Below, one piece after another: positions 1,380 to 37,189 of a stretch of 64,000 nt of DNA. Below the pieces are notes generated by a model that was not told the origin of the DNA, ran no database searches, and was given only the letters and a program-made list of their open reading frames with translations. Source of the DNA: Phyllosticta citribraziliensis (lineage: Eukaryota); NCBI RefSeq assembly GCF_038025025.1, contig NW_027117351.1:434001-498000 (forward strand), written 5' to 3'. Positions within the stretch are counted from its first letter, which is position 1; each line of letters opens with the position of its first letter. Position numbers and translations under genes: made by a program.

Positions 1380-3602
1380 TCACAGTTTACTCTCCCTCGG
1401 TCTCCCCTCCTCCACACCACTCATAACACGCGCAGGACCCAACGCCCCACTCATCTCAAACCGCTCAGCCTTTGCCTCGTCGTCACCATCGCCAAAGAGC
1501 ACCCTCTCGCGCCCGCCCCGCGTCGACCACCACGCCACAGCCACAAGACTGCGCTCGGGGTCCATCTCGCCGCCCACCAGCACCTCCCAGAAGCGGCGGC
1601 GCACGACGTCGCGCAGCGGCTCGTCCGCGATGGCGTTGACGAGGTCGGCGCAGAGCGGGAGCCACTCCTCGAGCAGCGGGACTGGCAGCAGAGGGAGGGC
1701 GTCGAGCAGCGTGAGCGCGAGGACTGCCTGCTCTGACAGTGCGGCCTCACCCGGCGCCAGCGTCTCGGCGCCCGGTGGTGGCGGCGAGGGCGTGACGGCC
1801 GTGGGCAGCGGGGTTGCGGGCGCCGACAGCGCGCGATGGTGGACCAGTTCGCAAAGGGTGGCGGGGAGGTCGGGCTGCGACGACGACAGCGGCGAGGGCG
1901 GCGTCGTCACTTGCATCAGCGTCTTGAAGGCGAGCCGGAACTGTCGCGGCGACAGGTTCGCAGGGAAGGCGGCAAACAGGCTTGACACGTAAAAGGGGAG
2001 GTGCCGGCCGGCGAGTGCGGGCCCGGACGTTCGCGACGAGAAGACGGAGAGCATGACCGAGTGCGCGGCTTCGAAGATGGGGAGGAGGTGGCGGGAGCCG
2101 CCGACCCCAAGATACGGCGTGGATGCGGTAACAAGGAGCTCTTCGGCCGTCTGCGGGGAGAGGATGGGCGCAAAGTGTTCGGCTGTGTTGAGGAAGAAGA
2201 GGTCCTGAACGCGGTCGAGAGGGTGGCGAGGGATTTGTCCGAGGGTTGCGGGTCGTATGGCTTTGAGAAGTGCATCTGCTTGCATGGGGTATTGCGAAAG
2301 GATATCAAGAGAAGTCAGATAGGAAAAAGTGTATTGAGAAAGCGAATTGGCACCCAGCCGCGAGCTGATGAAGTAGAGGTTTCTCAGCGTGTGGAGGGAG
2401 TGAGTGACGAGAATTGGTGCAACTGCTAAAATCAGTAGATGGCCTCCAGTTGGATGAATCGACATACCTCCATCTGCCGCAAGAGTTCCGTCTCCAAGAA
2501 TCCTGCCTAGTGCCCCGCGGAGTATTATCACTATGGCAAACAAGGCCGATTTCAGAGTTTTCCAAAGCAAAGGCAGAGTACTCTTAATCGTCTCCTGGGA
2601 AAGATGGGCAGCCTCCTCTGACTGGTCAATCTCAGACAGCTTGTTCTGGCGCCACTGGAGATTCAACGTCCGGGCGAACCCCGCAATGTCGTCAATCATG
2701 GTCTGTATGAGTCCTGAATTCTGGACATTCTCGACGGTGTGAGCTACAAGCCTCGAGAAAGGCCCCATGTACGTCATCAGAGGGCGGGACATGATGCGTT
2801 GGAGCTGGTGGTACGAGGTTGATCTAGCTGACCAGCCCAACTTTTGCCCGGGGACTTCGACGACGTCCAGGTCAATGGTTCCGAGGAAGTATGCCGAGTG
2901 AAAGCCTTCGTTCGAAAAGAATGCTGATCCGATCAACACTGGCAACAAATGGTCGTAGTCCAGCTGCGCCCTCTCCGTTTCTGAAAGGACGGGGAAAACG
3001 TGGTTCAGCACCATGGCGATGCACTGTCCTCCAAAGTCGTCTTCCCTCGCCTCTTCCAGGGCCATGTTTGTTGCCTCTACAAATGCTCTCTGTAGAGATG
3101 ATTGCAGACTCTTTGAAAAGGTGCAATCTTCTTCTTGATTTGAACCTAACAGTAGACCAGCGAGGATCAAAATGTGCTTCCATCGCGGAGATCTCTCATC
3201 GGCTCCCTTTGCAACCGCCCGCGCCCACTCCTCGGGGATCATTCCACCCCCAACCGGTATTTGGCCAGGCAGAGGCGGCTTCGCAGTGCCTTCCCTGACG
3301 TCGCGATCATGTTTGAGAAAGGTGTAGGTCGCAGAGTGGAAGAGACTCATGAAGCGCTGACAAGTGCGCAGGCCGTCCGGACGTTCCCATATTGCAGGCG
3401 CAAAGAGTAGCTGGCCAGTGAGGAGCTGGATGTTGAGAGGATTCGTAAGAGTCGTGAGAAGCGATGCTGCTGTAGCAAGAAGCCTGTGATGATGAGCGGA
3501 GATAAACATGTGGACGCGCGCGGCTTACCTCGGGGTATCCTGCTGGTCAGTCCATATCTGGAGTGATCTCAGCAGGGTCTCTAGCAGCCTATCTGCTGGC
3601 AT
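1380..3602 (-). CDS. PEX8: Peroxin Pex8 (fungal Pex8/Pex17 type) with C-terminal PTS1
   Basis: Exon 1 reads MPADRLLETLLRSLQ; introns at ~3484-3528 and ~2426-2467. Motifs LTNPLNI.LLT.QLL.APAIW and FEAAHSVML; the protein ends -SKL. Confidence 0.85.
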
Positions 3603-3816: not shown

Positions 3817-4354
3817 ATGAGGTACCGCTCCAAATGTCTATCCCCATTTCACTAAACATGCGCTCATGGGTGCCGTTCCCAGTGTCGTCTACCGCTACAA
3901 CAGCGTCCCGCGCGACTACACGACGCCCCCTTTCCCGTCGCTGTATTGGCCTTTTCCCGTCCGCGGCCACCAGGCCTACTACCTCTACGATGCCGGCGAC
4001 ATTTGGCGCTTTACCCTGACCTGGACGCTCCTCTTCTTCGGTGCCGTTCACCTCGCAACCTCCGGCTATGCGGTCATCGTCCAATGGCGCAACTGGAAGG
4101 TCATTTGGATAGTGCCCGTCATATACTGCGTTATTGGCGGCATAGAAGCATTAATAGCTGGAAGCATCGTGGGAGGACTGTACGTACGATGTACCCCTTT
4201 GAAGATACACCGCTAACGCGCTATCTGACGCAGGCTGGGTGGCGTTTACAGCTCCGGCTACTACAGCATGTCCACCTGGATGCCGTTTGTCTGGGCCTTT
4301 ATCAACACTCTGGTCCTCATCTTGTCTTCGTTCGCCATTCAGGGCAGTCTATGA
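3817..4354 (+). CDS. TMEM170-like small integral membrane protein
   Basis: PFPSLYWP...YLY...DIWRFTL.WTL, intron ~4180-4233, last exon GGVYSSGYYSMSTWMPFVWAFINTLVLILSSFAIQGSL*. Start uncertain (ATG 3817 plus an intron, or ATG 3866). Divergent from PEX8. Confidence 0.75.
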
Positions 4355-5703
4355 TTGGCACAGAGGATACATCACGGCCTGGAAGAAATGGCTCGGCTTG
4401 CCTCCCGCTCGATGCACGAAGAGACCGTTCACTCGTTGGAATCCGGGGAAGAGCAAGGTGCCGTGCCGCTCCGACATCAGCGTCTGTAGAACCTGTTGTT
4501 ATCTGGATCCCCCGCCGAGCATCTCAAGGCGACATTGCTCTACAGATGGGAAAGGCTGTCGCCAGCTGCTCCACTGCCCGTTACGCAGCTCAAACATTCC
4601 GAAAGAAAAGCAGAAGCAGAATTTCTGCGTAACGATAAGCGTGTCAAAATCACGGCCACCGCTCTTTCAGTCGAAGCTCAGTGGTGGCTAGCTCCATGCG
4701 CAAGACTGCCTTTTTCGCGGCTTTCCACATTTAGCAACTTCAAACGTCGCAAAGATGCGATATCGGCAGGCTCCATTTCTAGCGTCCCGCAAGTAGGAGC
4801 TCAGCCTGGCCTGTGCGCCTGGGGTTTGTGGAGAAGACACCACATGTCGATGATGCAGCCACTACGCAGCAGCTTGGTCTGTAATCGGGCCCCTACAATC
4901 ATGCTGTCGATTGTCCCTGCTTCGACTTGGTTTTCCGGCTACCTGGTTTGGTGTTGGCAGGTAAATGTCATCTGTCATCCCCAAACCAACATGCTAGCAC
5001 ACCACAAACGCTTTTGAGATTGTAGCACACGTTGGATTACTCCAACTTCTGTTGTGATCTGTTTTATATCGGCATTGCCCAGTCGCCTCTCCCTGAACGC
5101 CGCGATCCCGGGCCTGGAGACTCAGATACTCGCCCAATAACAAATTACGCATCTGTCTCTGACCTGTCTCTGTACATTTTGATTGAAAAGGATCCCGATG
5201 CTTGAAATACTTCAAGGGTACTTTGGCCTTTTTCCCTGGGCTGTCCGTGCTCAGCCCCCGGTGTTTTCTCGCCTAGTGTCAATTCAGGCGGTCTTAGGCA
5301 CGCACATGACGATGATGCTTCATGACGAACCAGCACCAAATTTCAGGGGTCCTACTGAACCACGTTCTTGTATGCGTCTGGTTCTTCGCGTGGAAGTCTC
5401 GCGCAGTTGTTGTTGGTTTCCTGCATTGTTTTGACCCCACAACACCACATACATACATACGTTCTCTGCAAGGCTGAGCGCTCACTCTCGCCATCACCTT
5501 ACCGACCACGACTTCGTACTACAACAATTGGACATCTCTGCTTTGTCTGCTGTGCTGGTCAGTCTTCGAATCGTGCCACGACCAACCATCTCAAGGCCCC
5601 CAGCGCCACCAGTGCACTCGGCTGAAGCCAACCAACATACGCATAAAAAGCAACTTTCGGGGGGTCACATATGTAGGCTCAGCCGCCTCTCAGACGGACT
5701 CAG

Positions 5704-6486
5704 ATGCTAATAGGAAGTAGAATTGCAGCGCTCAGATTGCTGTCGAGGATGATGCAGAGGAGGAGACTATCCAAACCTGCCCCGCTGGGCCAGACCGTCA
5801 AATCCCGAAGTCGCACCAGCCTCGAAGACAATGAAGTTTCTACATTGCTGCTAGACGAGCATCATACTTTTCCGCACCGCTTTTTCCGTTCTCACACCAC
5901 TCCAACCACCAACACTGCTGCGTCTCCCAGTGTCCGTCGAAACAAGAGTGCTCCGTCTTGCTTCCAGGTCTTGCCACCTGCTCGCTCAGCAGTATCAATC
6001 TACGAGGAATCGTCGGCTTTTGCAGCTCGCACAACTTCCAAGAAGTTGCAGAAGAAACAGCCTCTGGGCGAGGAAGACGGCAACGCTGGGGAGCGCTCCA
6101 GCACAGATCCTACCGCGAAACAGACGGCAATTGAAGAAGCACGTTCTCTCCTTGGTTTCGGACCCCGCGAGACTACCTTCGCTGTCAATGACAAGAACAA
6201 ATCGATACCTCATCCACCTTCATCTTTTGCTGTCAACGCGAGCTCTCCAGCCGTCACCAGCAACTACCACCCGCCACAGCCCTCAGGTCACAGCATCCAA
6301 CATCCAATCAACGTGGTTCATCAAAAGCCTTGTCCGCTGATTCGCAGAGGCACAATACAGCCTCTGAGGCGTTGGAAGTGTTGCAACTGCGGTGTCAAGA
6401 CCAACTACGATTTCCATGTTTGCTCGAGGCTTGCGTGTGGTCATGAGCGTTGCGAGGGTGCTTGTGTCACTTTTGAGCCTACTTGA
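5704..6486 (+). CDS. Hypothetical protein with C-terminal Cys/His zinc-binding motif (paralog 1 of 4)
   Basis: Low-complexity Ser/Pro body; C-terminus WKCCNCGVKTNYDFHVCSRLACGHERCEGAC. The true start may be ATG ~5749 after a 5' intron. Confidence 0.75.
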   Translation: MLIGSRIAALRLLSRMMQRRRLSKPAPLGQTVKSRSRTSLEDNEVSTLLLDEHHTFPHRFFRSHTTPTTNTAASPSVRRNKSAPSCFQVLPPARSAVSIYEESSAFAARTTSKKLQKKQPLGEEDGNAGERSSTDPTAKQTAIEEARSLLGFGPRETTFAVNDKNKSIPHPPSSFAVNASSPAVTSNYHPPQPSGHSIQHPINVVHQKPCPLIRRGTIQPLRRWKCCNCGVKTNYDFHVCSRLACGHERCEGACVTFEPT

Positions 6487-7065
6487 GAAGCTCTCTTGTC
6501 TGTTTTATGGACTTGGGTCAAGATACTCGACACTTTCGCGCCGGGCGGGTGCTGCGGTTGAAATATATCTCACATTGCTTTCTCCAATTTATACATGGTG
6601 TATCGGTAGTTGTTCTCTCTTAGTATACCGTCAACATCTGAGCAACTTCAAGTAAGGCAGGACGAGAAAACTTCCTTTGATTTTGGGGTACGCAAAGTTG
6701 CAACTTGGCTGGGGAAACAAAGCCATAACAGCTGGTCGCTTGCCCGCTTGCAGGACTGTTTCCAGAAGCCCCAGCGTACTGCTTGTTGTGGGGACGCTCT
6801 ACTGCAAACTCCACTGCTGCGTGTACCCAATTTCCACCAACACTGCACCCAATCAATCATCCCGACCGCTCTTCTCTCGCCAGACTCTCCTTCCAACACG
6901 AAAGGGAGCTGTCCATCCTGCTTATCCCTTCCAACCTCTACTTCATGGTTTCGTCTTCTGGGCAGTCTCTTCTATATACATGTAAGTCTCCATGGTCTCT
7001 GCCACAGCACTTTAGACCGAAGCTTACGAAGATTCGAATACAAGGTTTCTGGAGACTACGGCACA

Positions 7066-7691
7066 ATGAAGACCGGAAAGGAGCTCCGAAACAAACTCAA
7101 GAAGCACAAAGGCTTGGGTGCTGCCTCTCGACGCAATGTCGATACGCAAGACCACAGGCACGCCGAGATGCTTGATTCCGAGCGTAAGTTCAGCGGAATT
7201 GTAGCGCCTTGAGACGAAGACGTTGACTCCATACAGCGAAGGAACCTGCGCGGCTGTCTACTGATGCTAGCGGCCAAACCTTGTCCCCAATTTCCAACAA
7301 CATCCCTACTGATGTTAATGCCGCGACCCTCCTGCCTCATGAGCAGATGGGCTCTTCTGCCCGCGATTCGATTTCCTCGAGAAGCAGCTGGGACCGCGCG
7401 GTCCTCGCCGAGTTTACACCTGAGCTGTGCACTGCCACCAAGCAGACCGACGACACTCTCGTCGCCTCGCGCACTCATTCGCAGAACGCCGACGAGATTG
7501 AGCATCCATTCAAAGTATACTACCAGAGAGCCCGTTCAGGACTTGCAGGAGGGCTGATCCACGCGTGGAAGAAATGGGAATGCTGCCATTGCGGCTCGGT
7601 GACGCACTACGAGAACCATTTCTGCTCGCGTCTGCCGTGCTGCCACAAGCGCTGCGAGGCGCAGTGCACGACTCTTGAAGCTTCTGGCTAG
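7066..7691 (+). CDS. Hypothetical protein with C-terminal zinc-binding motif (paralog 2 of 4)
   Basis: Lys-rich exon 1 (MKTGKELRNKLKK). The phase-1 intron 7184-7236 (GTAAGT..TTGAC..CAG) joins in frame to WECCHCGSVTHYENHFCSRLPCCHKRCEAQC. Confidence 0.75.
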
Positions 7692-8474
7692 GCAAAGGCA
7701 AAGGCCAGACGATCTTTCTGGCCACTTCGGAGAGTATTTGGGCGGATGGCGTGTGGGCTTGACTGGAGTGATTGGAATAAAGGCTGGTTATAGACGAGAA
7801 GGCGAGCCCGGCCGATTTCGTGCGCGACTGGAAAGAGGGCGTACCTCAAAAACAACTTGCTTTTCAAATCGCCCTTGAGAGTCCCAATTGGCGACGTTCT
7901 CTCTGAAGCGCGTCCAAGTTTTACTGATCTTTGGGTGCCATTCGTAGTGGGGAGGACGCGACGGTGGACAACTTCCTCAGTCTTTATTCCCAGTTTTTGG
8001 CGCGCTGGGGCATCTCATGAAATTAACACCAGCGCAGTGGTATTACCAGTCCGGCCCACGGCAGCTGCACCCACGCTCTGCTGGGCCAAATTCGGCAGTC
8101 TATTGTTGACATTGTTCACACTATTCACTTTGGTGTGCTCGGGGCCTGCCGGGTCTACTTTCACAGTCTGTTGGCATTGTTTACATGGGTTTTGAACATT
8201 TGGGGTGTCCGGCTGCACTCGACTGTATTCACTTTAGTTCACAATGCTCTTGGGAAGGCCGTGCAATAAGAATGCCCACCTACCTCTGTGCGCCCGTCTT
8301 CATCTTCCTCTCTCTCCTCTAACATCTTCAAACCTCTACATCGCGGACCTTGACTGCGACGTTTCCTTCAAGCATCCTTACAAGCGCCATTCACTACGTA
8401 TGCTGCCATCCTCTTCGCATTCGATGCTCCTGCTGATCAAGACGAGACAGAAGAAACAACTCCAAGGTCTCAAA

Positions 8475-9123
8475 ATGGAGGCATACAACAGATCTCGCAA
8501 AAAGGTCTCGAAGTTTGCAAAGCCCAAGAATGGCGACAAGTCGACCATTCGCCGCCGCCGCGCTGCTCGCCACTCTGAGCGTAGGAACGCTGAGGCCTCA
8601 CGTTCTGACGGTAAGTTCGCCCGAACCTCAAAAGCTGCGATACCCTGAGAACAAGACCCTGACTGAGAATGCAGAGAGCAATTCTTCAGGCTCGACCCGT
8701 GGATTCTTTGCCCGCTTTCGCAAGCGTCAAGCCTCGCCCACCGGAGACAACCCAACCAAGAAGACCGTCTTCTCGCCCTTCAAGACGTTCGCCAACAAAA
8801 AGATCTCCGCACTCAAGGCACGCTTCGCAACTCGCATGCCGACGATCGCAACTCTCTTCGCCGGACTCCTCAAGCCCAAGTCGAGCACAAGCACCCCGGT
8901 GACTTTGACGCCTGAACCACAGGTCGCCGAAGAAGAGGAGGATTACCAACACGACACTCGCCAGCAGCTGCCGCGTCCTCCATCCGGTGGACTCCTCAGC
9001 GCTGTGAGGTCATGGGAGTGCTGCAGCTGCGGCGGCACAACCGGCTACAACAATTACTTCTGCCCGGAGTGTGGCAAGAAGCGCTGTGGCAGCTGTTCTA
9101 CGACCCACGAGCCTTACGTCTGA
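8475..9123 (+). CDS. Hypothetical protein with C-terminal zinc-binding motif (paralog 3 of 4)
   Basis: Basic exon 1 (MEAYNRSRKKVSK, good AAAATGG context). The phase-1 intron 8611-8674 joins in frame to WECCSCGGTTGYNNYFCPECGKKRCGSC. Confidence 0.7.
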
Positions 9124-9960
9124 ACAAGAAGACTTTGACGGTTCGGTGAAGGATCGGGCTCCGTCAAAGAAGGCTCTGTATCATTCTTCTCTCTTTTGGG
9201 TTTCATTTGCTATAAAGGATATCGACTTGGGTGGGATGGGATACGATGCGGAGTTCAGGCAAATTGGGCGTACAGGGCAGATAGCCGGTGTTAATTGGCG
9301 ATGGAGTCTTTTCTGGTGTCTCTTTGAATCCCTTTGTTTCAGCTCGTGGTTTTCTACTGCTGCCTCCCTTCTGAGGCAATACAAATTAAAACCTGGGGCT
9401 TTCCACGGTGCATGCTCCACCTTCAGGGTTCGTGATCGTGACAAAGTGTAAAGGAAGATGGTTGATTTGACGGAAGCTTGGAACGACTTGTAGGTGAATG
9501 TAATGTCCTTCTCCCAGCAGCAAGGTGGCTTGCAGAACTGAAAGCAACTTTTCCCGTGTCCATCACTGCTCTTGATGCTTTCCTGCAATGCCGCCTGTTT
9601 GACCACCCTAGCCGTTTTGGGCTGTTCGTGGTAAGCGAGGTTGCGTAAACACCGATATTGACCGCGTCCTCCTCCAAATTCTTGCACAACAGAGCCTAGC
9701 CAGCTGTTGATTCAACCCCGGTTTGAATCATCTGGCTCGCTGTCGCGCGTTGGGAGCTTTCTTCCGTTTGCTTCTTTTCTCGTCAGTCCTCCCCCTTCAG
9801 GTGTTTGTCTTTGCATGAGAACTCACCTCTTCTCACAGCCCCAGGTAACAAAACCTCGCCCAAACCAAGGCCGCCCAAGTAAGAATCTTCCCGTGGTGAA
9901 GGCTGGACCTGGTGCTAACCAAGAGGCCAGGTAACACTGCTATTAGAACCTCGCGTCACG

Positions 9961-10980
9961 ATGTCTGCGCCCGCTGCGCCCGCCGCTGTGGAGCAGGAGG
10001 TAAGAGCAGGCTCCGGAACCTCCTAGACTTGCGCCGAGAAGACTCATTAACGACATCATCAGGGTGCGCCGCTCTCGGCGTCGAGCCCTGAGCATAAAAG
10101 GGCGGAGACGGAAGCCCCGTCTCCTTCTTCCTCGAACCTTGACCTCGAGGAAGACGACGCCGACGACGAAGCCCCTCTGCTCCCACACGAGCGGATCGAC
10201 CCCCCGGCGCCCTCTCCCTCTCCCTCACCCTCCCCCTCCCCATCCCCCGAGAGCCCAGGCTCTCCCGACACCATGCGCCGCAGCAACAGCGCTCCGGCCT
10301 CGTCCTCCTCGTCGTCGTCGGGTCTCGCCGCCCTGACGCGCGCCACGGCTCGCCGCCTCCAAAGGAGGTCGTCCTCCAAGGCGAAGACCGGCGGCGACGA
10401 GGCTGGTCAGGCCGGCCCGCCTGCGGCCAACAGAGAAGACCTCATTCGTGAGGCACAGGCTGCCCTGGACCTGGGACCGCGGGACCCCACGCTGTCCACC
10501 ATCGTGTCGGCCATGTTGTCGGCACCTCAGCGCGCCACCACCACCACCACCGCCGCCGCCCCATCCTCCTCCTCCGCCGCCGCCGCTGCCGGCACCTCCA
10601 CCCGGGACTTTGCGCCCGTCCAGCAGCTCTCCAGCCTCCGCGTGGCCAGCGACGAGGCCGACGACGAAGCCGGCGCTCTCGAGGCCGACATGGCGAGCTA
10701 CATCAACGCGCCCTCGCCCCAGCCAGCCCAGCCCGCCGCCCAGGAGTGGGTCGCGCCCAACGACGACGACGACGTCGTCCACCACCCGCGCCACGTCGTG
10801 TACATGCGGCCCGTCAAGACCATCGGCCCGTTCGGCATGTGGCTGGAGGAGTTCAAGCGCTGGCAGTGCTGCCACTGCGGCTGCAAGACGCACTACGAGA
10901 ACCACGTCTGCTCCAACCTCTCTTGCATGCACCGTCGCTGCTACGAGCATTGCTGCACCTGTCTGCCTGCCAACGGTTAG
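9961..10980 (+). CDS. Hypothetical protein with C-terminal zinc-binding motif (paralog 4 of 4)
   Basis: Exon 1 MSAPAAPAAVEQE, intron 10000-10062, in frame with ORF 10273-10980 ending WQCCHCGCKTHYENHVCSNLSCMHRRCYEHCCTCLPANG*. High GC3. Confidence 0.8.
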
Positions 10981-11721
10981 CGTGGCCTACCATTTCAGCC
11001 GCCCAGTCAGTTAGTTGGTCGGGCTTCTTCCTTCTCTTACGTTGAATTGAAGGAAGCGTTGAAGATGGATAGCGAAAGGTCAGTCAACTCACCTGCCTCG
11101 ACACTTGATGAGTACAAGACTAACTGGCCCTCAGGTTTTACGAGAGTTGCTGCGCGTGTTTGCCTGCCAACGCTCAGCCGTTTGAGGTCCCCATCGGTCG
11201 GGTGGGCTTCTTCCTTCTCTTACGTGAATTGAAGGAAGACTTGAAGATGACGTCGCCAAAGGTCAGTCAACTCACCTGTCTCCACGCTCAATGAGTACAA
11301 GACTAACTGGCCCCCAGGTTCTATGAGCATTGCTGCGCCTGTTTGCCTGCCGACATTGAGCGTCGCGTACCGTCTGGGCCATTCAGTCACTCGGGCTTCT
11401 TCCTTCTTTTACGTTGAACTGAAGGGAGTTGAATACAGCCTAGCGAAAGGTCAGTCAGCCCATGCGCCTCCTCACTTGATGAGACAAGACTGACTGGCCT
11501 TCAGGTTCCATGAGCATTGCTGTACCCGTTTTCCCTGGCGACATCAAGCGTCGCGTACCGTCACCTACAGTGTGGACCACTCAGCCCGCCCCTCAAACAG
11601 CCAGGCCTCTTCCTTCTTTTACGTTGAACTGAAGGAAGACTCAAAGACAGCACAGCGACAGGTCAGCCCGCTCACCCTTCTCCCCACTCATTGCATACAA
11701 TACTGACTGTCCTTCAGGTTT
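10942..11721 (+). repeat. Tandem repeat, 4 diverged units of ~183-212 bp, each containing a 55-56 nt intron-like segment
   Basis: Units start ~10942, 11139, 11322, 11509. Shared blocks: YAYGAGCATTGCTG, GGCTTCTTCCTTCTYTTACGT, AAGGTCAG, ACTRACTG..CAGGTT. Confidence 0.9.
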
Positions 11722-12611
11722 TCAGGTTTCAGATTTTCCGACGGTTGGATGGACGCACTTCAGGATCTCGATCGGCCAGAGTGTTTTCCCGCACACATAC
11801 CCGTCACTCCCCACGTCGGCATGAGACGCTTTGTCTTGCCTTCCCCTTACACCTTGCACTCTGTAGACCACGATACCCCACTCCCCTCTCGTAGCTAGCC
11901 GCACGTGTTAGCTTTGCACAATCCAGCTTTCAGGATGGTTCGTTTTCTTGTTGTTTGTGTTGGCGGGACGTACATCGCGAGCCTGCCTCCCCCATCGTCT
12001 ATGTGCAGTTTGTGCGTCCCATCTCTTTGTGTACCAGGTACACGATTTCGAGTGGTCTGGAGAAACCAATCTGCTTCGAAAATCAGCACTGCCTCATCTG
12101 CGTCTTCCTAACACGCGCAACCGCGACGCATTAGGCCCTTCAACCCACAGAATCTGCCTCCATGGCTGTGTCCTCGCTCCACTGGAGCCAGTTCCTCCCT
12201 CTCCCGCCATCGCCAATGCACCGCCGTCCATTGCAGAAGCCATAGTCACGCCCCTCACACCCAACCCCATGCCCACCGACACCGAATTCCGTTCCGTCCT
12301 ATGCCACCCAGCCCAGCCAACCCATGCATCCCAGCCACGCACTACAAGCAGTGCGACCAAAGAAAGAGGAGCCAACAGCGCCAGAGCGAGGGAAAAGGTA
12401 TCAGAGGAGCCATTGACCGCAAAAGGAAGCACCGCGTTGCTGTGTCTTCCATCTCGTCTCGTGTGTCGTGTCTACACCTCGCGCTCTTGCGGGACAGATA
12501 TGCTTGGACCTGGCTGGTGATGATTGGAGATCTGAGTATGTACGCATGTGTGTTCGGGAGGAAAAGGTGGGAAAGAGAGGGATAGATGGGGTGGATGGGA
12601 TAGGATAGGAA

Positions 12612-12688
12612 GTCGCAAGGAATAAGACTCCCTTGATCTGGCTGCGGCGGCAGTGGATGACTGCTTCCTAAGCGTGACTGTAGTAGCT
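12612..12688. mobile_element. Partial MITE family A fragment
   Basis: GTCGCAAGGAATAAGACTCCCTTGATCTGGCTGCGGC matches the reverse complement of ~50425-50460. GACTGCTTCCTAAGCGTG matches 1241-1258. Confidence 0.6.
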
Positions 12689-13059
12689 ACGAAGAAGACA
12701 GGCGGATTGCTAGTCTGGTCGGGGTGGATACACTTGGGCTGAAAGAAAGTTTATGCATACGTGTTGTGTAAGTGATGGCTGCGAGCACGTAGGGCACTGC
12801 GTTGTTGCGAGAAGCTTACGCAGAAAGAGATGATGGCTTTTGAAGAGCGAGGGATGAAAGATCGGAAAATGGGCAAGTCTGTTTAGCGTGCCTGTAAGTG
12901 TCTGAGGGAATTGCAAGGTCCAGCGGGATGAAGGAGACCGGACGCTTACCCAGCAAACGCATCATTGACCCTCAAGAACCGCGGGCAAAGAGTCTCTGCT
13001 CCAAGAGGGTTGGGCATATCCATTCGATTTTCCGAGCCACCACACCAACACCCGCCAAC

Positions 13060-13827
13060 CTACCACTCTCCCACCCTCTCAAACAAGCGGAACTCAAACT
13101 CGACCTCCTCGACCCCCTCTTCCGCCTTGACAACCTCCTTCACACACCCCTCGGGCACATCCTCCCCCACGAATGCGCTCAACTCATGATTGCTCTTCCT
13201 CGTCCACCCCTCGCCCTCGACGTTAACCGGGAAGAATGTGTCGCACTCCCAATCGCGCTGAATCCGCGTCAGGAGCACCGTCCGCGCATTCGGCGTCTCG
13301 AGCGCGGCCTTGTACAGCGCTGCACCGCCAATGACGAAGAGGCGCCCCAGACCGGCGAGCGGCTCGCCTCCCACGAGAGTCTGTTCCTGAGTATTGTGGT
13401 CCTCATCAGCCAGCCGATTCGATGATATGGCGTCAAGCTTCTCCAGCGCAGCAGGCAGAGACGAGGCAGTAATAACGGTATCGCCCTTTGCCGCGGCGTC
13501 GGCGACGCCAGCGATGGACGAGGCGGGCGAGCGCGATATGACGACGTTGAGCCTGTCCTTGAGCGGCCGGAAGCGCGGCGGGATCGAGTCCCAGGTCTTT
13601 CGGCCCATGACTACGGCGTTGCAGATGTGTGGAAGAGAAGAGGTCGTAGCAGAGGTGGGCGAGGGCACGCGCTTGGTGACGCGCGCGAAGTATGCCATTT
13701 CTTTCTTGAGCATTGGCCATGGCAGGCCGCCGCCTTTGCCGATGCCGAGGGACGGCGTTGTTGCGACGATGAGCGTCAGCGGGAGGCGCGAGGTCAGTGG
13801 CGGAGGCATGGTTGCGTCGTCGGGCAT
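13060..13827 (-). CDS. DFR1: Dihydrofolate reductase
   Basis: LIVA...GIGK.GGLPWP.LKKEMAYF.RVT, NAVVMGRKTWDSIP..FRPLKDRLNVVIS, FVIGGA.LY, CDTFFP. Intronless. Confidence 0.95.
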   Translation of the reverse strand: MPDDATMPPPLTSRLPLTLIVATTPSLGIGKGGGLPWPMLKKEMAYFARVTKRVPSPTSATTSSLPHICNAVVMGRKTWDSIPPRFRPLKDRLNVVISRSPASSIAGVADAAAKGDTVITASSLPAALEKLDAISSNRLADEDHNTQEQTLVGGEPLAGLGRLFVIGGAALYKAALETPNARTVLLTRIQRDWECDTFFPVNVEGEGWTRKSNHELSAFVGEDVPEGCVKEVVKAEEGVEEVEFEFRLFERVGEW

Positions 13828-35740: not shown

Positions 35741-37189
35741 ATGTCAGCAAAGAATGTGAAGGGGCCAAACGGCAAGAAGCCGTCGGCGGCGACCAACTTG
35801 ATCGGTATGCTCACTTAGTTGAAGAACTGGGGAATATCTGCAGAATGGAGGGCTGATGTTTGGACACAGCGGGCGGTGGAGCAGGCATGATGGAGGCGCT
35901 TGCATGTCATCCTCTTGGTAAGTGGGAAAGCTTTCTGTTTGCCGGAAAATACAACTGATGGCCATACAGACACGATCAAAGTGCGCATGCAGCTCTCGCG
36001 AAGAGGAAGAGCTCCAGGGGTGAGTGTTGCCCAAGTTTCCAGTCAAGCATTTTCCCAGAGTCCTTCTCTTGGAGGCTCCACCAAAAGCCGTGCCCAAGTT
36101 CCCCTGAACAGCACACTCCAACTTCAACAAATCCATCCAGTCAGTGTCCGGAGAACCATACTGAATTCTACTTTTGCTAGACGAAAGCTCGCGGCTTCCT
36201 CCGCACCGGTGCCGACATTGTCAAGCGGGAAACGCCCCTCGGTCTGTACAAGGGTCTCGGTGCCGTCCTGACGGGCATCGTTCCCAAAATGGCGATTCGC
36301 TTCACCAGCTACGAATGGTACAAGCAGCTGCTCGCGGGCAAAGACGGCTCCGTCAGCGGACAGGCGACGTTCATCGGTACGTGCAGTCCCAAAGCCCCTC
36401 CACATCAAAGCAAAAGGGAAGAAAAAGGGAAAAGAATGGACAAAAAAGCTAACTCGCACGCCTGCACCAGCCGGCCTCTCCGCCGGCGTCACCGAAGCCG
36501 TCGCCGTCGTCACGCCCATGGAAGTCGTCAAAATCCGGCTGCAGGCCCAACACCACAGCATGGCGGACCCGCTCGACATACCCAAGTACCGCAACGCGGC
36601 GCACGCGCTGTACACGGTGGTGCGCGAGGAGGGCGCGGCGGCGCTGTACCGCGGCGTGTCGCTGACGGCGCTGCGCCAGGGCTCCAACCAGGCTGTCAAC
36701 TTCACCGCCTACTCCGAGTTCCGCGCCGCGCTGCAGAGCTGGCAGGGCAAGACCGACCTGCCCGGCTGGCAGACGGCCGCCATTGGCCTCGTCAGCGGCG
36801 CCATGGGCCCCCTGAGCAATGCCCCGATCGATACGATTAAGACGCGTTTGCAGAAGACGCCGGCGGAGGAGGGCGAGACGGCGCTTGGCCGCATTGTCAA
36901 GATTGGGAAGTATGTGCTTGACCGCTTGATTGTTTCCCCCTCCCTCCCTCCCTCCCTCCCTCCATCCTCTGTGTAGTCTTGTGTGCTTCGCGGACATTTG
37001 GCTGACGACGTCGTCGCGCGCAGGGACATGTGGAAGCAAGAAGGCACGCGCTCCTTCTACAAGGGCATCACGCCGCGCATCATGCGCGTGGCGCCGGGCC
37101 AGGCCGTCACGTTCACCGTGTACGAGTATCTCAAGAACATCCTCGAGCGCGGGAGGGACTACATTCCCGGCGGGAGCTACGAGGAGTGA
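35741..37189 (+). CDS. SFC1: Mitochondrial succinate/fumarate carrier
   Basis: Six exons: NLIAGGGAGMMEALACHPLDTIKVRMQLS, IVPKMAIRF, TPMEVVKIRLQAQHHSMADPLDIPKYRNA, RQGSNQA, RVAPGQAVTF. Three PxD/ExxKxR carrier signatures. Confidence 0.92.

What the first reader, a model, noticed from the sequence alone, without database searches (positions are those of the whole stretch)
5704..10980. Tandem array of four diverged paralogs with an unnamed C-terminal WxCCxCG..C..C.H.RC..C zinc module
Seen: four consecutive + strand genes between TMEM170 and DHFR all end in W-x-C-C-x-C-G-x2-T-x-Y-x2-(H/Y)-x-C-x(2-4)-C-x-(H/K)-x-R-C-x(2-3)-C after a low-complexity body. Their DNA has diverged strongly, yet short linear motifs persist in order. 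RRNKSAP/RRSNSAP, ARTTSKKLQKK/TRATARRLQRR and IEEARSLLGFGPRETT/IREAQAALDLGPRDPT are shared by paralogs 1 and 4. HPINVV/HPFKVY/HPRHVV and an LL(P)HE-type motif are shared by paralogs 1, 2 and 4. Paralogs 2 and 3 share a basic first exon and a phase-1 intron. Inference: an old, selectively maintained family of two-zinc adaptor or nucleic-acid-binding proteins with basophilic kinase-like sites (RRxxS). Tandem paralog clusters are unusual in filamentous ascomycetes, and I cannot assign this one to a characterised family.
Basis: partly seen in the sequence, partly recalled or inferred. Interest (0 to 1): 0.8.

Follow-up and report, generated by a model that had tools for sequence, protein, structure and literature searches.

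The report
Fungal zinc-finger adaptor gene cluster
A citrus-associated Phyllosticta fungus carries four side-by-side, diverged copies of an unstudied gene that related fungi seem to keep as one copy; each encodes a floppy protein ending in a small zinc-finger-like module with no curated family match in the library searched, and its job is inferred rather than shown.

Summary
Four + strand genes end in the stated Cys/His module (4 hits, 0 in 100 shuffles), and no other copy was found in this genome. The module has no Pfam match in the local copy. It marks an undescribed Dothideomycete family (about 250-550 aa S/P/R/K-rich body plus C-terminal module; also 52-57 aa mini-proteins) under purifying selection (module dN/dS 0-0.34). 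Other genera gave one type per species; Phyllosticta species hold changing sets of paralogs. The AlphaFold model (pLDDT 84) resembles RanBP2/NZF zinc ribbons, weakly (Z up to 4). Four extra conserved ligands suggest a second zinc. The NZF ubiquitin TF motif and the RanBP2 signature are absent (0 of 45). Best reading: a phospho-regulated disordered adaptor whose module binds a protein partner. Many non-Phyllosticta members carry SKIP/SRIP, an EB1-type motif that the four paralogs lack. PF26652 membership could not be tested. Real and undescribed, but an ordinary kind of lineage expansion.

The parts
   Evidence: GT..AG joint 5672>5721 in RNA contig of run X1; branch site GCTAAT
5749..6486 (+). 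paralog 1 CDS, 245 aa, single exon; RRLSK, RRNKSAP, KKLQKK, LGFGPR, HPINV motifs
   Evidence: P. capitalensis counterpart P0066 has 39% body and 54% module identity
6373..6465 (+). zinc module of p1
6982..7044 (+). p2 5'-UTR intron
   Evidence: GT..AG joint in runs X1 and X2
7066..7691 (+). paralog 2 CDS, 190 aa; exons 7066-7183 and 7237-7691, phase-1 intron 7184-7236
   Evidence: joint 7183>7237 in runs X1 and X2; same as public protein P0006
7575..7667 (+). zinc module of p2 (the one modelled)
8398..8450 (+). predicted p3 5'-UTR intron (donor GTATGC; acceptor 8441, 8450 or 8453 not resolved)
   Evidence: sequence signals; the aligned piece of the X1 contig stops at 8397 with 17 letters left over; inferred
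8475..9123 (+). paralog 3 CDS, 194 aa; exons 8475-8610 and 8675-9123, phase-1 intron; fast-evolving, His ligand replaced by Lys
   Evidence: P0008; donor at 8611 used in the related organism B; long branch near p2
9013..9096 (+). zinc module of p3 (CxxC spacer, no His)
9771..9826 (-). intron of an antisense transcript over the p3-p4 spacer and p4 promoter
   Evidence: CT..AC joint in run X1 and in run X3 of another organism; GTGAGT donor, ACTGAC branch, AG on - strand
9961..10980 (+). paralog 4 CDS, 318 aa as modelled; exons 9961-9999 and 10063-10980; LLPHER, RRSNSAP, RRLQRR, LDLGPR, HPRHV motifs
   Evidence: exon 1 matches the start of the P. citriasiana protein P0012; sense splicing not among the listed joints
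10861..10953 (+). zinc module of p4
   Evidence: 39 of 39 residues identical in P. citrichinensis P0005
10941..11720 (+). about four tandem ~185-bp units (last codons of p4 + 3'-UTR + intron-like GTCAG..CAG)
3817..4354 (+). flanking TMEM170 gene
   Evidence: PF10190; two introns spliced in RNA contigs
13060..13827 (-). flanking DHFR gene, convergent with the cluster
   Evidence: PF00186; DHFR also beside the family gene in L047 and L048

Best explanation
A Dothideomycete gene, seen as one type per species outside Phyllosticta, encodes a largely disordered S/P/R/K-rich adaptor ending in a ~35-residue zinc module. It was tandemly duplicated in the lineage leading to Phyllosticta and has turned over since: p1/p4-type keep the ancestral motifs, p2-type lost several, p3 diverged fastest. 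SHOWN: genes, motif, p2 splicing, family range, purifying selection. PREDICTED: a RanBP2/NZF-like ribbon (W-x-C-x2-C-x3-T-x6-C-x2/4-C) binds one zinc. INFERRED: the second Cys of CC plus H-x-R-C-x2/3-C binds a second zinc; the folded module with its invariant T-x-(Y/W/V)-E and Arg face docks a conserved protein partner, not ubiquitin through a TF motif; and short motifs in the tail ((K/R)L(S/T/Q)K, LLPHER, LDLGPR, RRxxSAP, ancestrally SKIP) set location and respond to phosphorylation. The copies act as differently targeted or differently timed versions of one adaptor.
For: Family: 47 of 52 hits at E<=0.001 carry the module or a variant of it, nearly always at the C-terminus; 5 are compositional false hits. 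All named members are Dothideomycetes (five lineages looked up, the rest from recall). One full copy in each of 14 metagenome loci. Module pN<pS in 45 of 45 ortholog pairs, dN/dS 0-0.34 in the 17 pairs with dS<1; bodies 0.39-0.55 in three alignable pairs. Module more conserved than body in 5 of 5 Phyllosticta ortholog pairs with an intact module. Ligand columns in 45 rows: core four Cys and W invariant, second Cys 44, His 40, Arg 40, next Cys 43. Model pLDDT 83.6; 20 of the 50 best structural matches are RanBP2/NZF-type by title and recall, with TAB2, Npl4 and RBM5 fingers aligned over their whole 30-31 residues at 1.7-2.1 A. Tail motifs above shuffle: (K/R)L(S/T/Q)K in 20 of 55 proteins vs 2.4, S(K/R)IP in 11 vs 1.2, LLPHE in 10 vs 0, with no such excess for the first two in background ORFs. 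A RanBP2-type finger without TF acting as a protein-docking surface is proposed for HOIP (PMC11372445, passages).
Against: No structural match reaches Z 5 and the top row is ribosomal eL40, so the fold assignment is weak; Foldseek E>=1.6. Zinc number and ligands were not measured. No partner is identified. Motif counts are over related proteins, so they are not independent. Phyllosticta monophyly is unresolved: 40% of bootstrap trees with an outgroup, AU p 0.49, so duplication before the family split with loss in Botryosphaeriaceae is possible. 'One per species' rests on word-based and clustered searches. Paralog-pair dN/dS is noisy, 0.15-0.91 over about 39 codons. Sense splicing of p4's first intron is not seen, and organism B's contig crosses that intron unspliced.
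Confidence: 0.5

Rival explanations
1. RNA-binding regulators: the module binds single-stranded RNA like the ZRANB2/FUS/RBM5 fingers, and the R/S-rich basic tail adds affinity and drives granule formation.
For: RBM5, FUS, RBM10 and ZRANB2 fingers are among the structural matches (Z 2.9-3.7). A conserved aromatic (Y/W in 25 of 45) and Arg (40 of 45) are present. Tails are R/S-rich, and a TRS..RR / RRxER motif occurs in 22 of 55 proteins vs 0.5 expected.
Against: The signature W-X-C-X(2,4)-C-X3-N-X6-C-X2-C (10.1101/2025.06.19.660640, passage) matches 0 of 45, with Thr in place of Asn in 43. The aromatic becomes Val in 18 of 45. The module is barely basic. The TRS/RRxER motif is absent from all 10 Phyllosticta bodies tested.
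Confidence: 0.2
2. Microtubule plus-end (EB1) cargo adaptor: the ancestral protein tracks plus ends through SKIP and links them to a target through the zinc module. The Phyllosticta copies lost SxIP and became untethered modulators.
For: S(K/R)IP in 11 of 47 non-Phyllosticta proteins vs 1.0 expected (max 4), at lineage-conserved sites in basic S/P-rich sequence; 0 in 9,450 aa of background disordered segments and 4 vs 2.8 in all background ORFs. The EBH domain binds SxIP (PMC8441410, passages).
Against: The 11 reduce to about 2-3 independent sites. 36 of 47 lack it, as do 3 of 5 full metagenome ORFs and all 10 Phyllosticta bodies tested, including the four here. It therefore cannot explain why the paralogs are kept.
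Confidence: 0.12
3. Ubiquitin- or Ran-binding NZF/nucleoporin-type reader.
For: TAB2 and Npl4 NZF rank 2 and 3 by structure; the Nup153 finger is the best PDB sequence hit, E 0.83.
Against: The TF motif that defines NZF ubiquitin binding (PMC11372445, passages) is absent in 45 of 45, and Asn is absent in 43 of 45. The sequence hit is not significant.
Confidence: 0.08
4. Mostly a decaying duplication: one or two copies do the ancestral job and the rest drift, with some silenced by antisense RNA from the DHFR side.
For: Organism B's RNA contig joins 4840 to about 7169 at non-GT ends, consistent with deletion of p1 and of p2's start. A spliced antisense RNA covers p4's promoter. The P. citriasiana p4 model loses the module's second half. 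p3 lost a His ligand.
Against: All four ORFs are intact. p2, p3 and p4 each have orthologs in other species with module identity of 82-100% against 46-98% for bodies, and p1 has one with 54% against 39%. All 6 paralog-pair dN/dS values are below 1.
Confidence: 0.1

Closest known systems
RanBP2-type zinc fingers, including the NZF subgroup (TAB2 7e62, Npl4 1q5w, RBM5 2lk1, Nup153)
   Same: Trp before the first Cys, C-x2-C-x10-C spacing, and a predicted two-hairpin ribbon aligning over 30-31 residues at 1.7-2.1 A. Two mini-protein members keep the Asn.
   Different: Thr for Asn in 43 of 45; second knuckle C-x4-C in 42 of 45; no TF motif; an extra Cys inside the first knuckle and an H-x-R-C-x2/3-C tail as a likely second site; no PF00641 match.
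Pfam PF26652 Zn_ribbon_double ('probable double zinc ribbon', ascomycete proteins of unknown function)
   Same: Nearest named cluster by language-model features: score 0.80 and 0.78, 119 and 114 of 256 features; Ascomycota.
   Different: Scores are below the tool's lead threshold of 0.9, and shuffled proteins reach 0.8 a third of the time. Three unnamed 54-58 aa ascomycete clusters with no common Pfam family score higher (0.86-0.87). The HMM is not in the local library.
IBR/Rcat (RING2) domains of RBR ligases; B-box, AN1 and FYVE two-zinc domains
   Same: The C-x2/4-C-x-H-x2-C-x2-C spacing recalls these (from memory). Parkin RING2 and RNF216 appear at Z 2.5; B-box E 0.36-0.84 for p3-type members.
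   Different: All matches are far below significance. The module is shorter, stands alone at the end of a disordered protein, and has no RING1.
Disordered septal-pore-associated (SPA) proteins of Pezizomycotina
   Same: Lineage-restricted proteins with disordered S/P/R-rich bodies (recalled; PMC10023807 seen only as a search listing with the start of its abstract).
   Different: No sequence link was tested or found; the resemblance is compositional only.

Membership tests
RanBP2-type zinc finger (PF00641) | Signature W-X-C-X(2,4)-C-X3-N-X6-C-X2-C | tested here: not met
   0 of 45 module sequences; signature from a passage of 10.1101/2025.06.19.660640
RanBP2-type zinc finger (PF00641) | Trp before first Cys and four Cys with x2, x10, x2-4 spacing | tested here: met
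   45 of 45
RanBP2-type zinc finger (PF00641) | Pfam HMM match | tested here: not met
   no PF00641 row for any of 45 members at E<=1
RanBP2-type zinc finger (PF00641) | Zinc-ribbon fold | tested here: inconclusive
   Z 3.7-3.9, rmsd 1.7-2.1 A over whole fingers, tied with eL40 and MCM ribbons; no Z>=5
NZF ubiquitin-binding domain | Thr-(Phe/Tyr) motif after the second Cys | tested here: not met
   0 of 45. The motif is from passages of PMC11372445; its position right after the second Cys is recalled
NZF ubiquitin-binding domain | Binds the ubiquitin Ile44 patch | not testable with these tools
   needs a binding assay
PF26652 Zn_ribbon_double | HMM score above gathering threshold | not testable with these tools
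   family absent from the local Pfam copy
PF26652 Zn_ribbon_double | Language-model feature similarity at family level | tested here: inconclusive
   0.78-0.80, 114-119 shared features; lead only
IBR / B-box / RING two-zinc domains | Pfam HMM match above cut-off | tested here: not met
   best B-box E 0.36 (2 of 45), RING_2 E 0.029 (1 of 45)
Two-zinc module (any) | Two Zn bound per domain | not testable with these tools
SxIP-type EB1 cargo (+TIP) | SxIP in a basic S/P-rich disordered region | tested here: not met
   0 S(K/R)IP in the four paralogs and six other Phyllosticta bodies; present in 11 of 47 other members

The most novel reading that the evidence does not exclude
The module is an undescribed two-zinc elaboration of the RanBP2/NZF ribbon with its own ligand. 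It defines a Dothideomycete-specific adaptor that ancestrally rides microtubule plus ends via SKIP. In Phyllosticta it was split into a tandem set of SxIP-less paralogs with re-wired targeting (p3 possibly replacing its lost His with a downstream His), switched by a conserved spliced antisense RNA from the DHFR side, for example during spore or sexual development.
Probability: 0.1. Interest if true: 0.7.

Novelty: new variant of a known kind. Interest (0 to 1): 0.36.

Why it matters
It adds an undescribed, class-wide fungal protein family with a compact, well-predicted zinc module related to a fold whose known members read ubiquitin, Ran or RNA, yet lacking the ubiquitin motif and the family signature, so a new ligand is likely. 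A gene apparently kept single in many plant-associated Dothideomycetes but multiplied and turned over in Phyllosticta, a genus with both endophytes and citrus pathogens, gives a small, tractable case of paralog specialisation. Nothing here ties it to lifestyle or disease, and it does not open a long-standing question.

Tried and rejected
Pfam scans of the paralogs, 45 homologs and 45 module sequences gave nothing significant for the module. PDB sequence searches gave E>=0.21. Foldseek against PDB and viral models gave no E<=0.001. The first AlphaFold run (10 sequences) was poor, pLDDT 62, and was not used. A single-sequence search with p1 residues 180-245 found only itself. The DNA pattern for WxCCxC in the genome was too loose to use (316 matches vs 164 for the control). 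Protein searches of the genome and an HMM over 490 kb of sampled genome found no further copy; these are lower bounds. A complex prediction of the p2 module with ubiquitin and two zinc ions returned no verdict. No run was on record as RNA; the three laid runs are contigs that show splicing but cannot rank expression. A family-wide 14-3-3 site (RxxS/TxP) was rejected: 26 of 55 vs 25.2 expected, although RRxxSxP recurs in the p1/p4 type (5 vs 0.2 in 10 related Phyllosticta bodies). The minus-strand transcript spliced downstream of DHFR has no convincing long ORF. The bacterial promoter scan was uninformative. Loci L049 and L050 were false bacterial hits and were dropped. Literature: no paper held six ortholog locus tags or PF26652 / Zn_ribbon_double / IPR058253 / 'probable double zinc ribbon'. 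Searches showed nothing on this family in their listings, and PMC9073689 has no 'zinc', 'tandem' or 'paralog' in its main text. Supplements were not read; expression tables there could bear on it.


Full report
OBSERVATION. A six-frame scan of the 64 kb window finds W-x-C-C-x-C-G four times, all on the + strand (6373, 7575, 9013, 10861), each near the end of an ORF. The flanking genes are TMEM170 and a convergent DHFR. Proteins identical to my p2 and p3 models are labelled Phyllosticta citribraziliensis in public sources, a Botryosphaeriales Dothideomycete. Four protein searches of the 31 Mb genome hit only this cluster significantly, and an HMM over 490 kb of sampled genome found no other copy. 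Both are lower bounds.

GENE MODELS. Three public runs, held as contigs and not recorded as RNA, show GT..AG joints. p2's introns 6982-7044 (5'-UTR) and 7184-7236 (phase 1) are spliced in X1 and X2. For p3, an X1 contig piece ends at 8397, the base before a GTATGC donor, and organism B uses the donor at 8611; start 8475 agrees with public model P0008. p4's first exon is supported by the P. citriasiana protein P0012, but its intron is not among the listed joints (7 joints were not shown) and organism B's contig crosses it unspliced. All four genes have a shown or predicted intron 14-28 nt before the ATG, a shared layout. A minus-strand intron at 9771-9826 is spliced in two organisms, and three more lie 3' of DHFR, so spliced antisense RNA reaches the p4 region. 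Contigs cannot rank expression.

FAMILY. Pfam (24,736 models) has no significant match for the paralogs, for the module of any homolog, or for 45 module sequences. A profile of 10 modules against 1.84 billion representatives gave 52 hits. Five are compositional false hits (P0024, P0026, P0033, P0035, P0055) and were dropped; the other 47 carry the module or a variant. A second profile gave 38 hits among 441 candidates. Named members are Macrophomina, Diplodia, Lasiodiplodia, Neofusicoccum, Coniosporium, Mytilinidion, Lepidopterella, Pseudocercospora, Zasmidium, Fulvia, Cladosporium, Neophaeotheca, Oleoguttula, Vermiconidia and Rachicladosporium. Five lineages were looked up as Dothideomycetes; the rest I recall as such. 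The usual layout is a 250-550 aa S/P/T/R/K-rich body with one C-terminal module; 52-57 aa mini-proteins consist of little else. Outside Phyllosticta each named species gave one type, and each of 14 metagenome loci holds one full copy (2 of the 16 loci were false hits). DHFR lies about 350 bp downstream in L047 and L048 (near-identical, so one case; same strand rather than convergent). L047 also carries a mitochondrial carrier 74% identical to the one at window 36272-36970. TMEM170 was not seen in any locus, most of which are short upstream. This supports orthology with shuffled local order.

EXPANSION. P. capitalensis has four types: one p1-like and three p2-like, with near-consecutive accessions and one fused gene model spanning two of them. 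P. citricarpa has a fused p2+p3 model in the same order as here, P. citriasiana gave p2 and p4, and P. citrichinensis gave p3 and p4. Organism B's contig joins 4840 to about 7169 at non-splice ends, which fits a deletion of p1 and p2's start. Trees on 68-70 columns group Botryosphaeriales (89/95), make the three capitalensis p2-like copies a clade (93/89) and put p3 on a long branch near p2. Phyllosticta monophyly is neither shown (40% of bootstrap trees with an outgroup) nor rejected (AU p 0.49). The picture is birth-and-death at one locus, with the date of the first duplication open.

SELECTION. Among 10 metagenome orthologs the module has pN<pS in 45 of 45 pairs, and dN/dS is 0-0.34 in the 17 pairs with dS<1; three alignable bodies give 0.39-0.55. 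Between the four paralogs dN/dS is 0.15-0.91 over about 39 codons. The two highest values involve p4, whose GC3 of 0.84 may compress dS. Ortholog identity, body vs module: p1 39/54, p2 46/90, p3 59/82 and 59/85, p4 98/100; the P. citriasiana p4 model, which lacks the module's second half, gives 70/69.

THE MODULE. In 45 rows, W and four Cys are invariant with x2, x10 and x2-4 spacing; the extra Cys (44), His (40), Arg (40) and following Cys (43) are nearly so. AlphaFold2 with this alignment gives pLDDT 83.6, pTM 0.61 and three short strands. Against 48,161 chains no match reaches Z 5. The best are eL40 (Z 4.0), TAB2 NZF (3.9, 2.1 A, 30 of 30), Npl4 NZF (3.8, 1.7 A, 31 of 31) and RBM5 (3.7, 1.7 A, 30 of 30); 20 of the 50 rows are RanBP2/NZF-type by title and recall. 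It works like a RanBP2-type ribbon in shape but is not a member by signature: 0 of 45 match, Thr replaces Asn in 43, and there is no TF motif (definitions from passages of 10.1101/2025.06.19.660640 and PMC11372445). The two mini-proteins in the alignment keep the Asn and bridge to the classic pattern. The remaining Cys, His, Cys, Cys most simply bind a second zinc (inference). All three p3-type proteins seen have Lys for His and a His three residues after the last Cys, a possible compensation (speculation). The nearest named Atlas cluster is PF26652 Zn_ribbon_double at 0.78-0.80, a lead only; unnamed 54-58 aa ascomycete clusters score higher. That HMM is not held here, so membership stays open.

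THE TAIL. Bodies are 34-50% S/P/T/A and 16-21% hydrophobic. In 55 family proteins (strain duplicates, mini-proteins and false hits left out), against 300 shuffles: (K/R)L(S/T/Q)K 20 vs 2.4, S(K/R)IP 11 vs 1.2, TRS..RR/RRxER 22 vs 0.5, LLPHE 10 vs 0, RRxS/T 39 vs 28 (max 37), RxxS/TxP 26 vs 25. Background ORFs show no excess of the first two. These are related sequences and the patterns were chosen after seeing them, so the counts show conservation and not independent gains. The Botryosphaeriaceae proteins carry KLQKK, RRxER, LLPHER, SKIP, LDLGPR and HP-x-x-V in order. p1 and p4 keep the C-terminal set minus SKIP and add RRxxSAP; p2 keeps LLPHE and HP; p3 keeps none of LLPHE, LGPR or HP-x-x-V.

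MECHANISM. Most likely (0.5) these are disordered adaptors: the zinc module docks a conserved protein partner, linear motifs set location and phospho-control, and the paralogs are differently targeted versions. Rivals are an RNA reader (0.2), an EB1 cargo whose Phyllosticta copies lost SxIP (0.12; SxIP-EBH binding per passages of PMC8441410), a decaying duplication (0.1) and a ubiquitin/Ran reader (0.08). No partner is shown.

NOVELTY. The searches named in Tried and rejected found no paper on the family; the library misses most subscription journals, and supplements were not read. The scan's own index has no sequence match but lists a similar kind of finding, a fungal zinc-finger array in another genome. 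The claim that tandem paralog clusters are rare in filamentous ascomycetes was not verified (one search listed one paper, not read). Verdict: a real, undescribed, conserved family with a variant zinc ribbon and an ordinary lineage-specific expansion. New variant of a known kind; interest 0.36.

Noticed in passing
window 10941-11720: About four tandem ~185-bp units, each holding p4's last codons, 3'-UTR and an intron-like GTCAG..ACTRAC..CAG element; mean column identity 79%. Splicing was not among the listed joints.
   Followed up: partly
L043:2025-2384: An unrelated Dothideomycete locus also has a partial duplicate of the module's 3' half just after the stop codon.
   Followed up: partly
window 9771-9826, 11895-11973, 12071-12148, 12879-12949 (- strand): Four spliced minus-strand introns: a long DHFR 3'-UTR or antisense RNA running toward and over p4; the 9771-9826 intron is shared with organism B. 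No convincing ORF.
   Followed up: partly
window 6945-7255: After splicing, a 55-codon upstream ORF from ATG 6945 overlaps p2's start out of frame; possible translational damping.
   Followed up: no
window 3908-8397: One RNA contig runs through TMEM170, p1 and p2, and organism B's runs from TMEM170 to p4's start: overlapping UTRs or read-through; contigs cannot tell.
   Followed up: no
window 4841-7168: This stretch (p1 and the start of p2) is missing from organism B's contig at non-splice ends, a likely genomic deletion.
   Followed up: partly
window 12612-12687 and about 1220-1330: A short dispersed repeat: contigs from elsewhere match 12612-12687 and run on into sequence like that at 1220-1330.
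   Followed up: no
window 1380-3524 (- strand): Long ORF ending in SKL (peroxisomal targeting signal, recalled) with no Pfam hit here; resembles fungal Pex8 from memory, untested.
   Followed up: no
proteins P0041, P0043, P0076-P0082: 52-57 aa mini-proteins that are little more than the module and keep the RanBP2 Asn; a good construct for structure work.
   Followed up: partly
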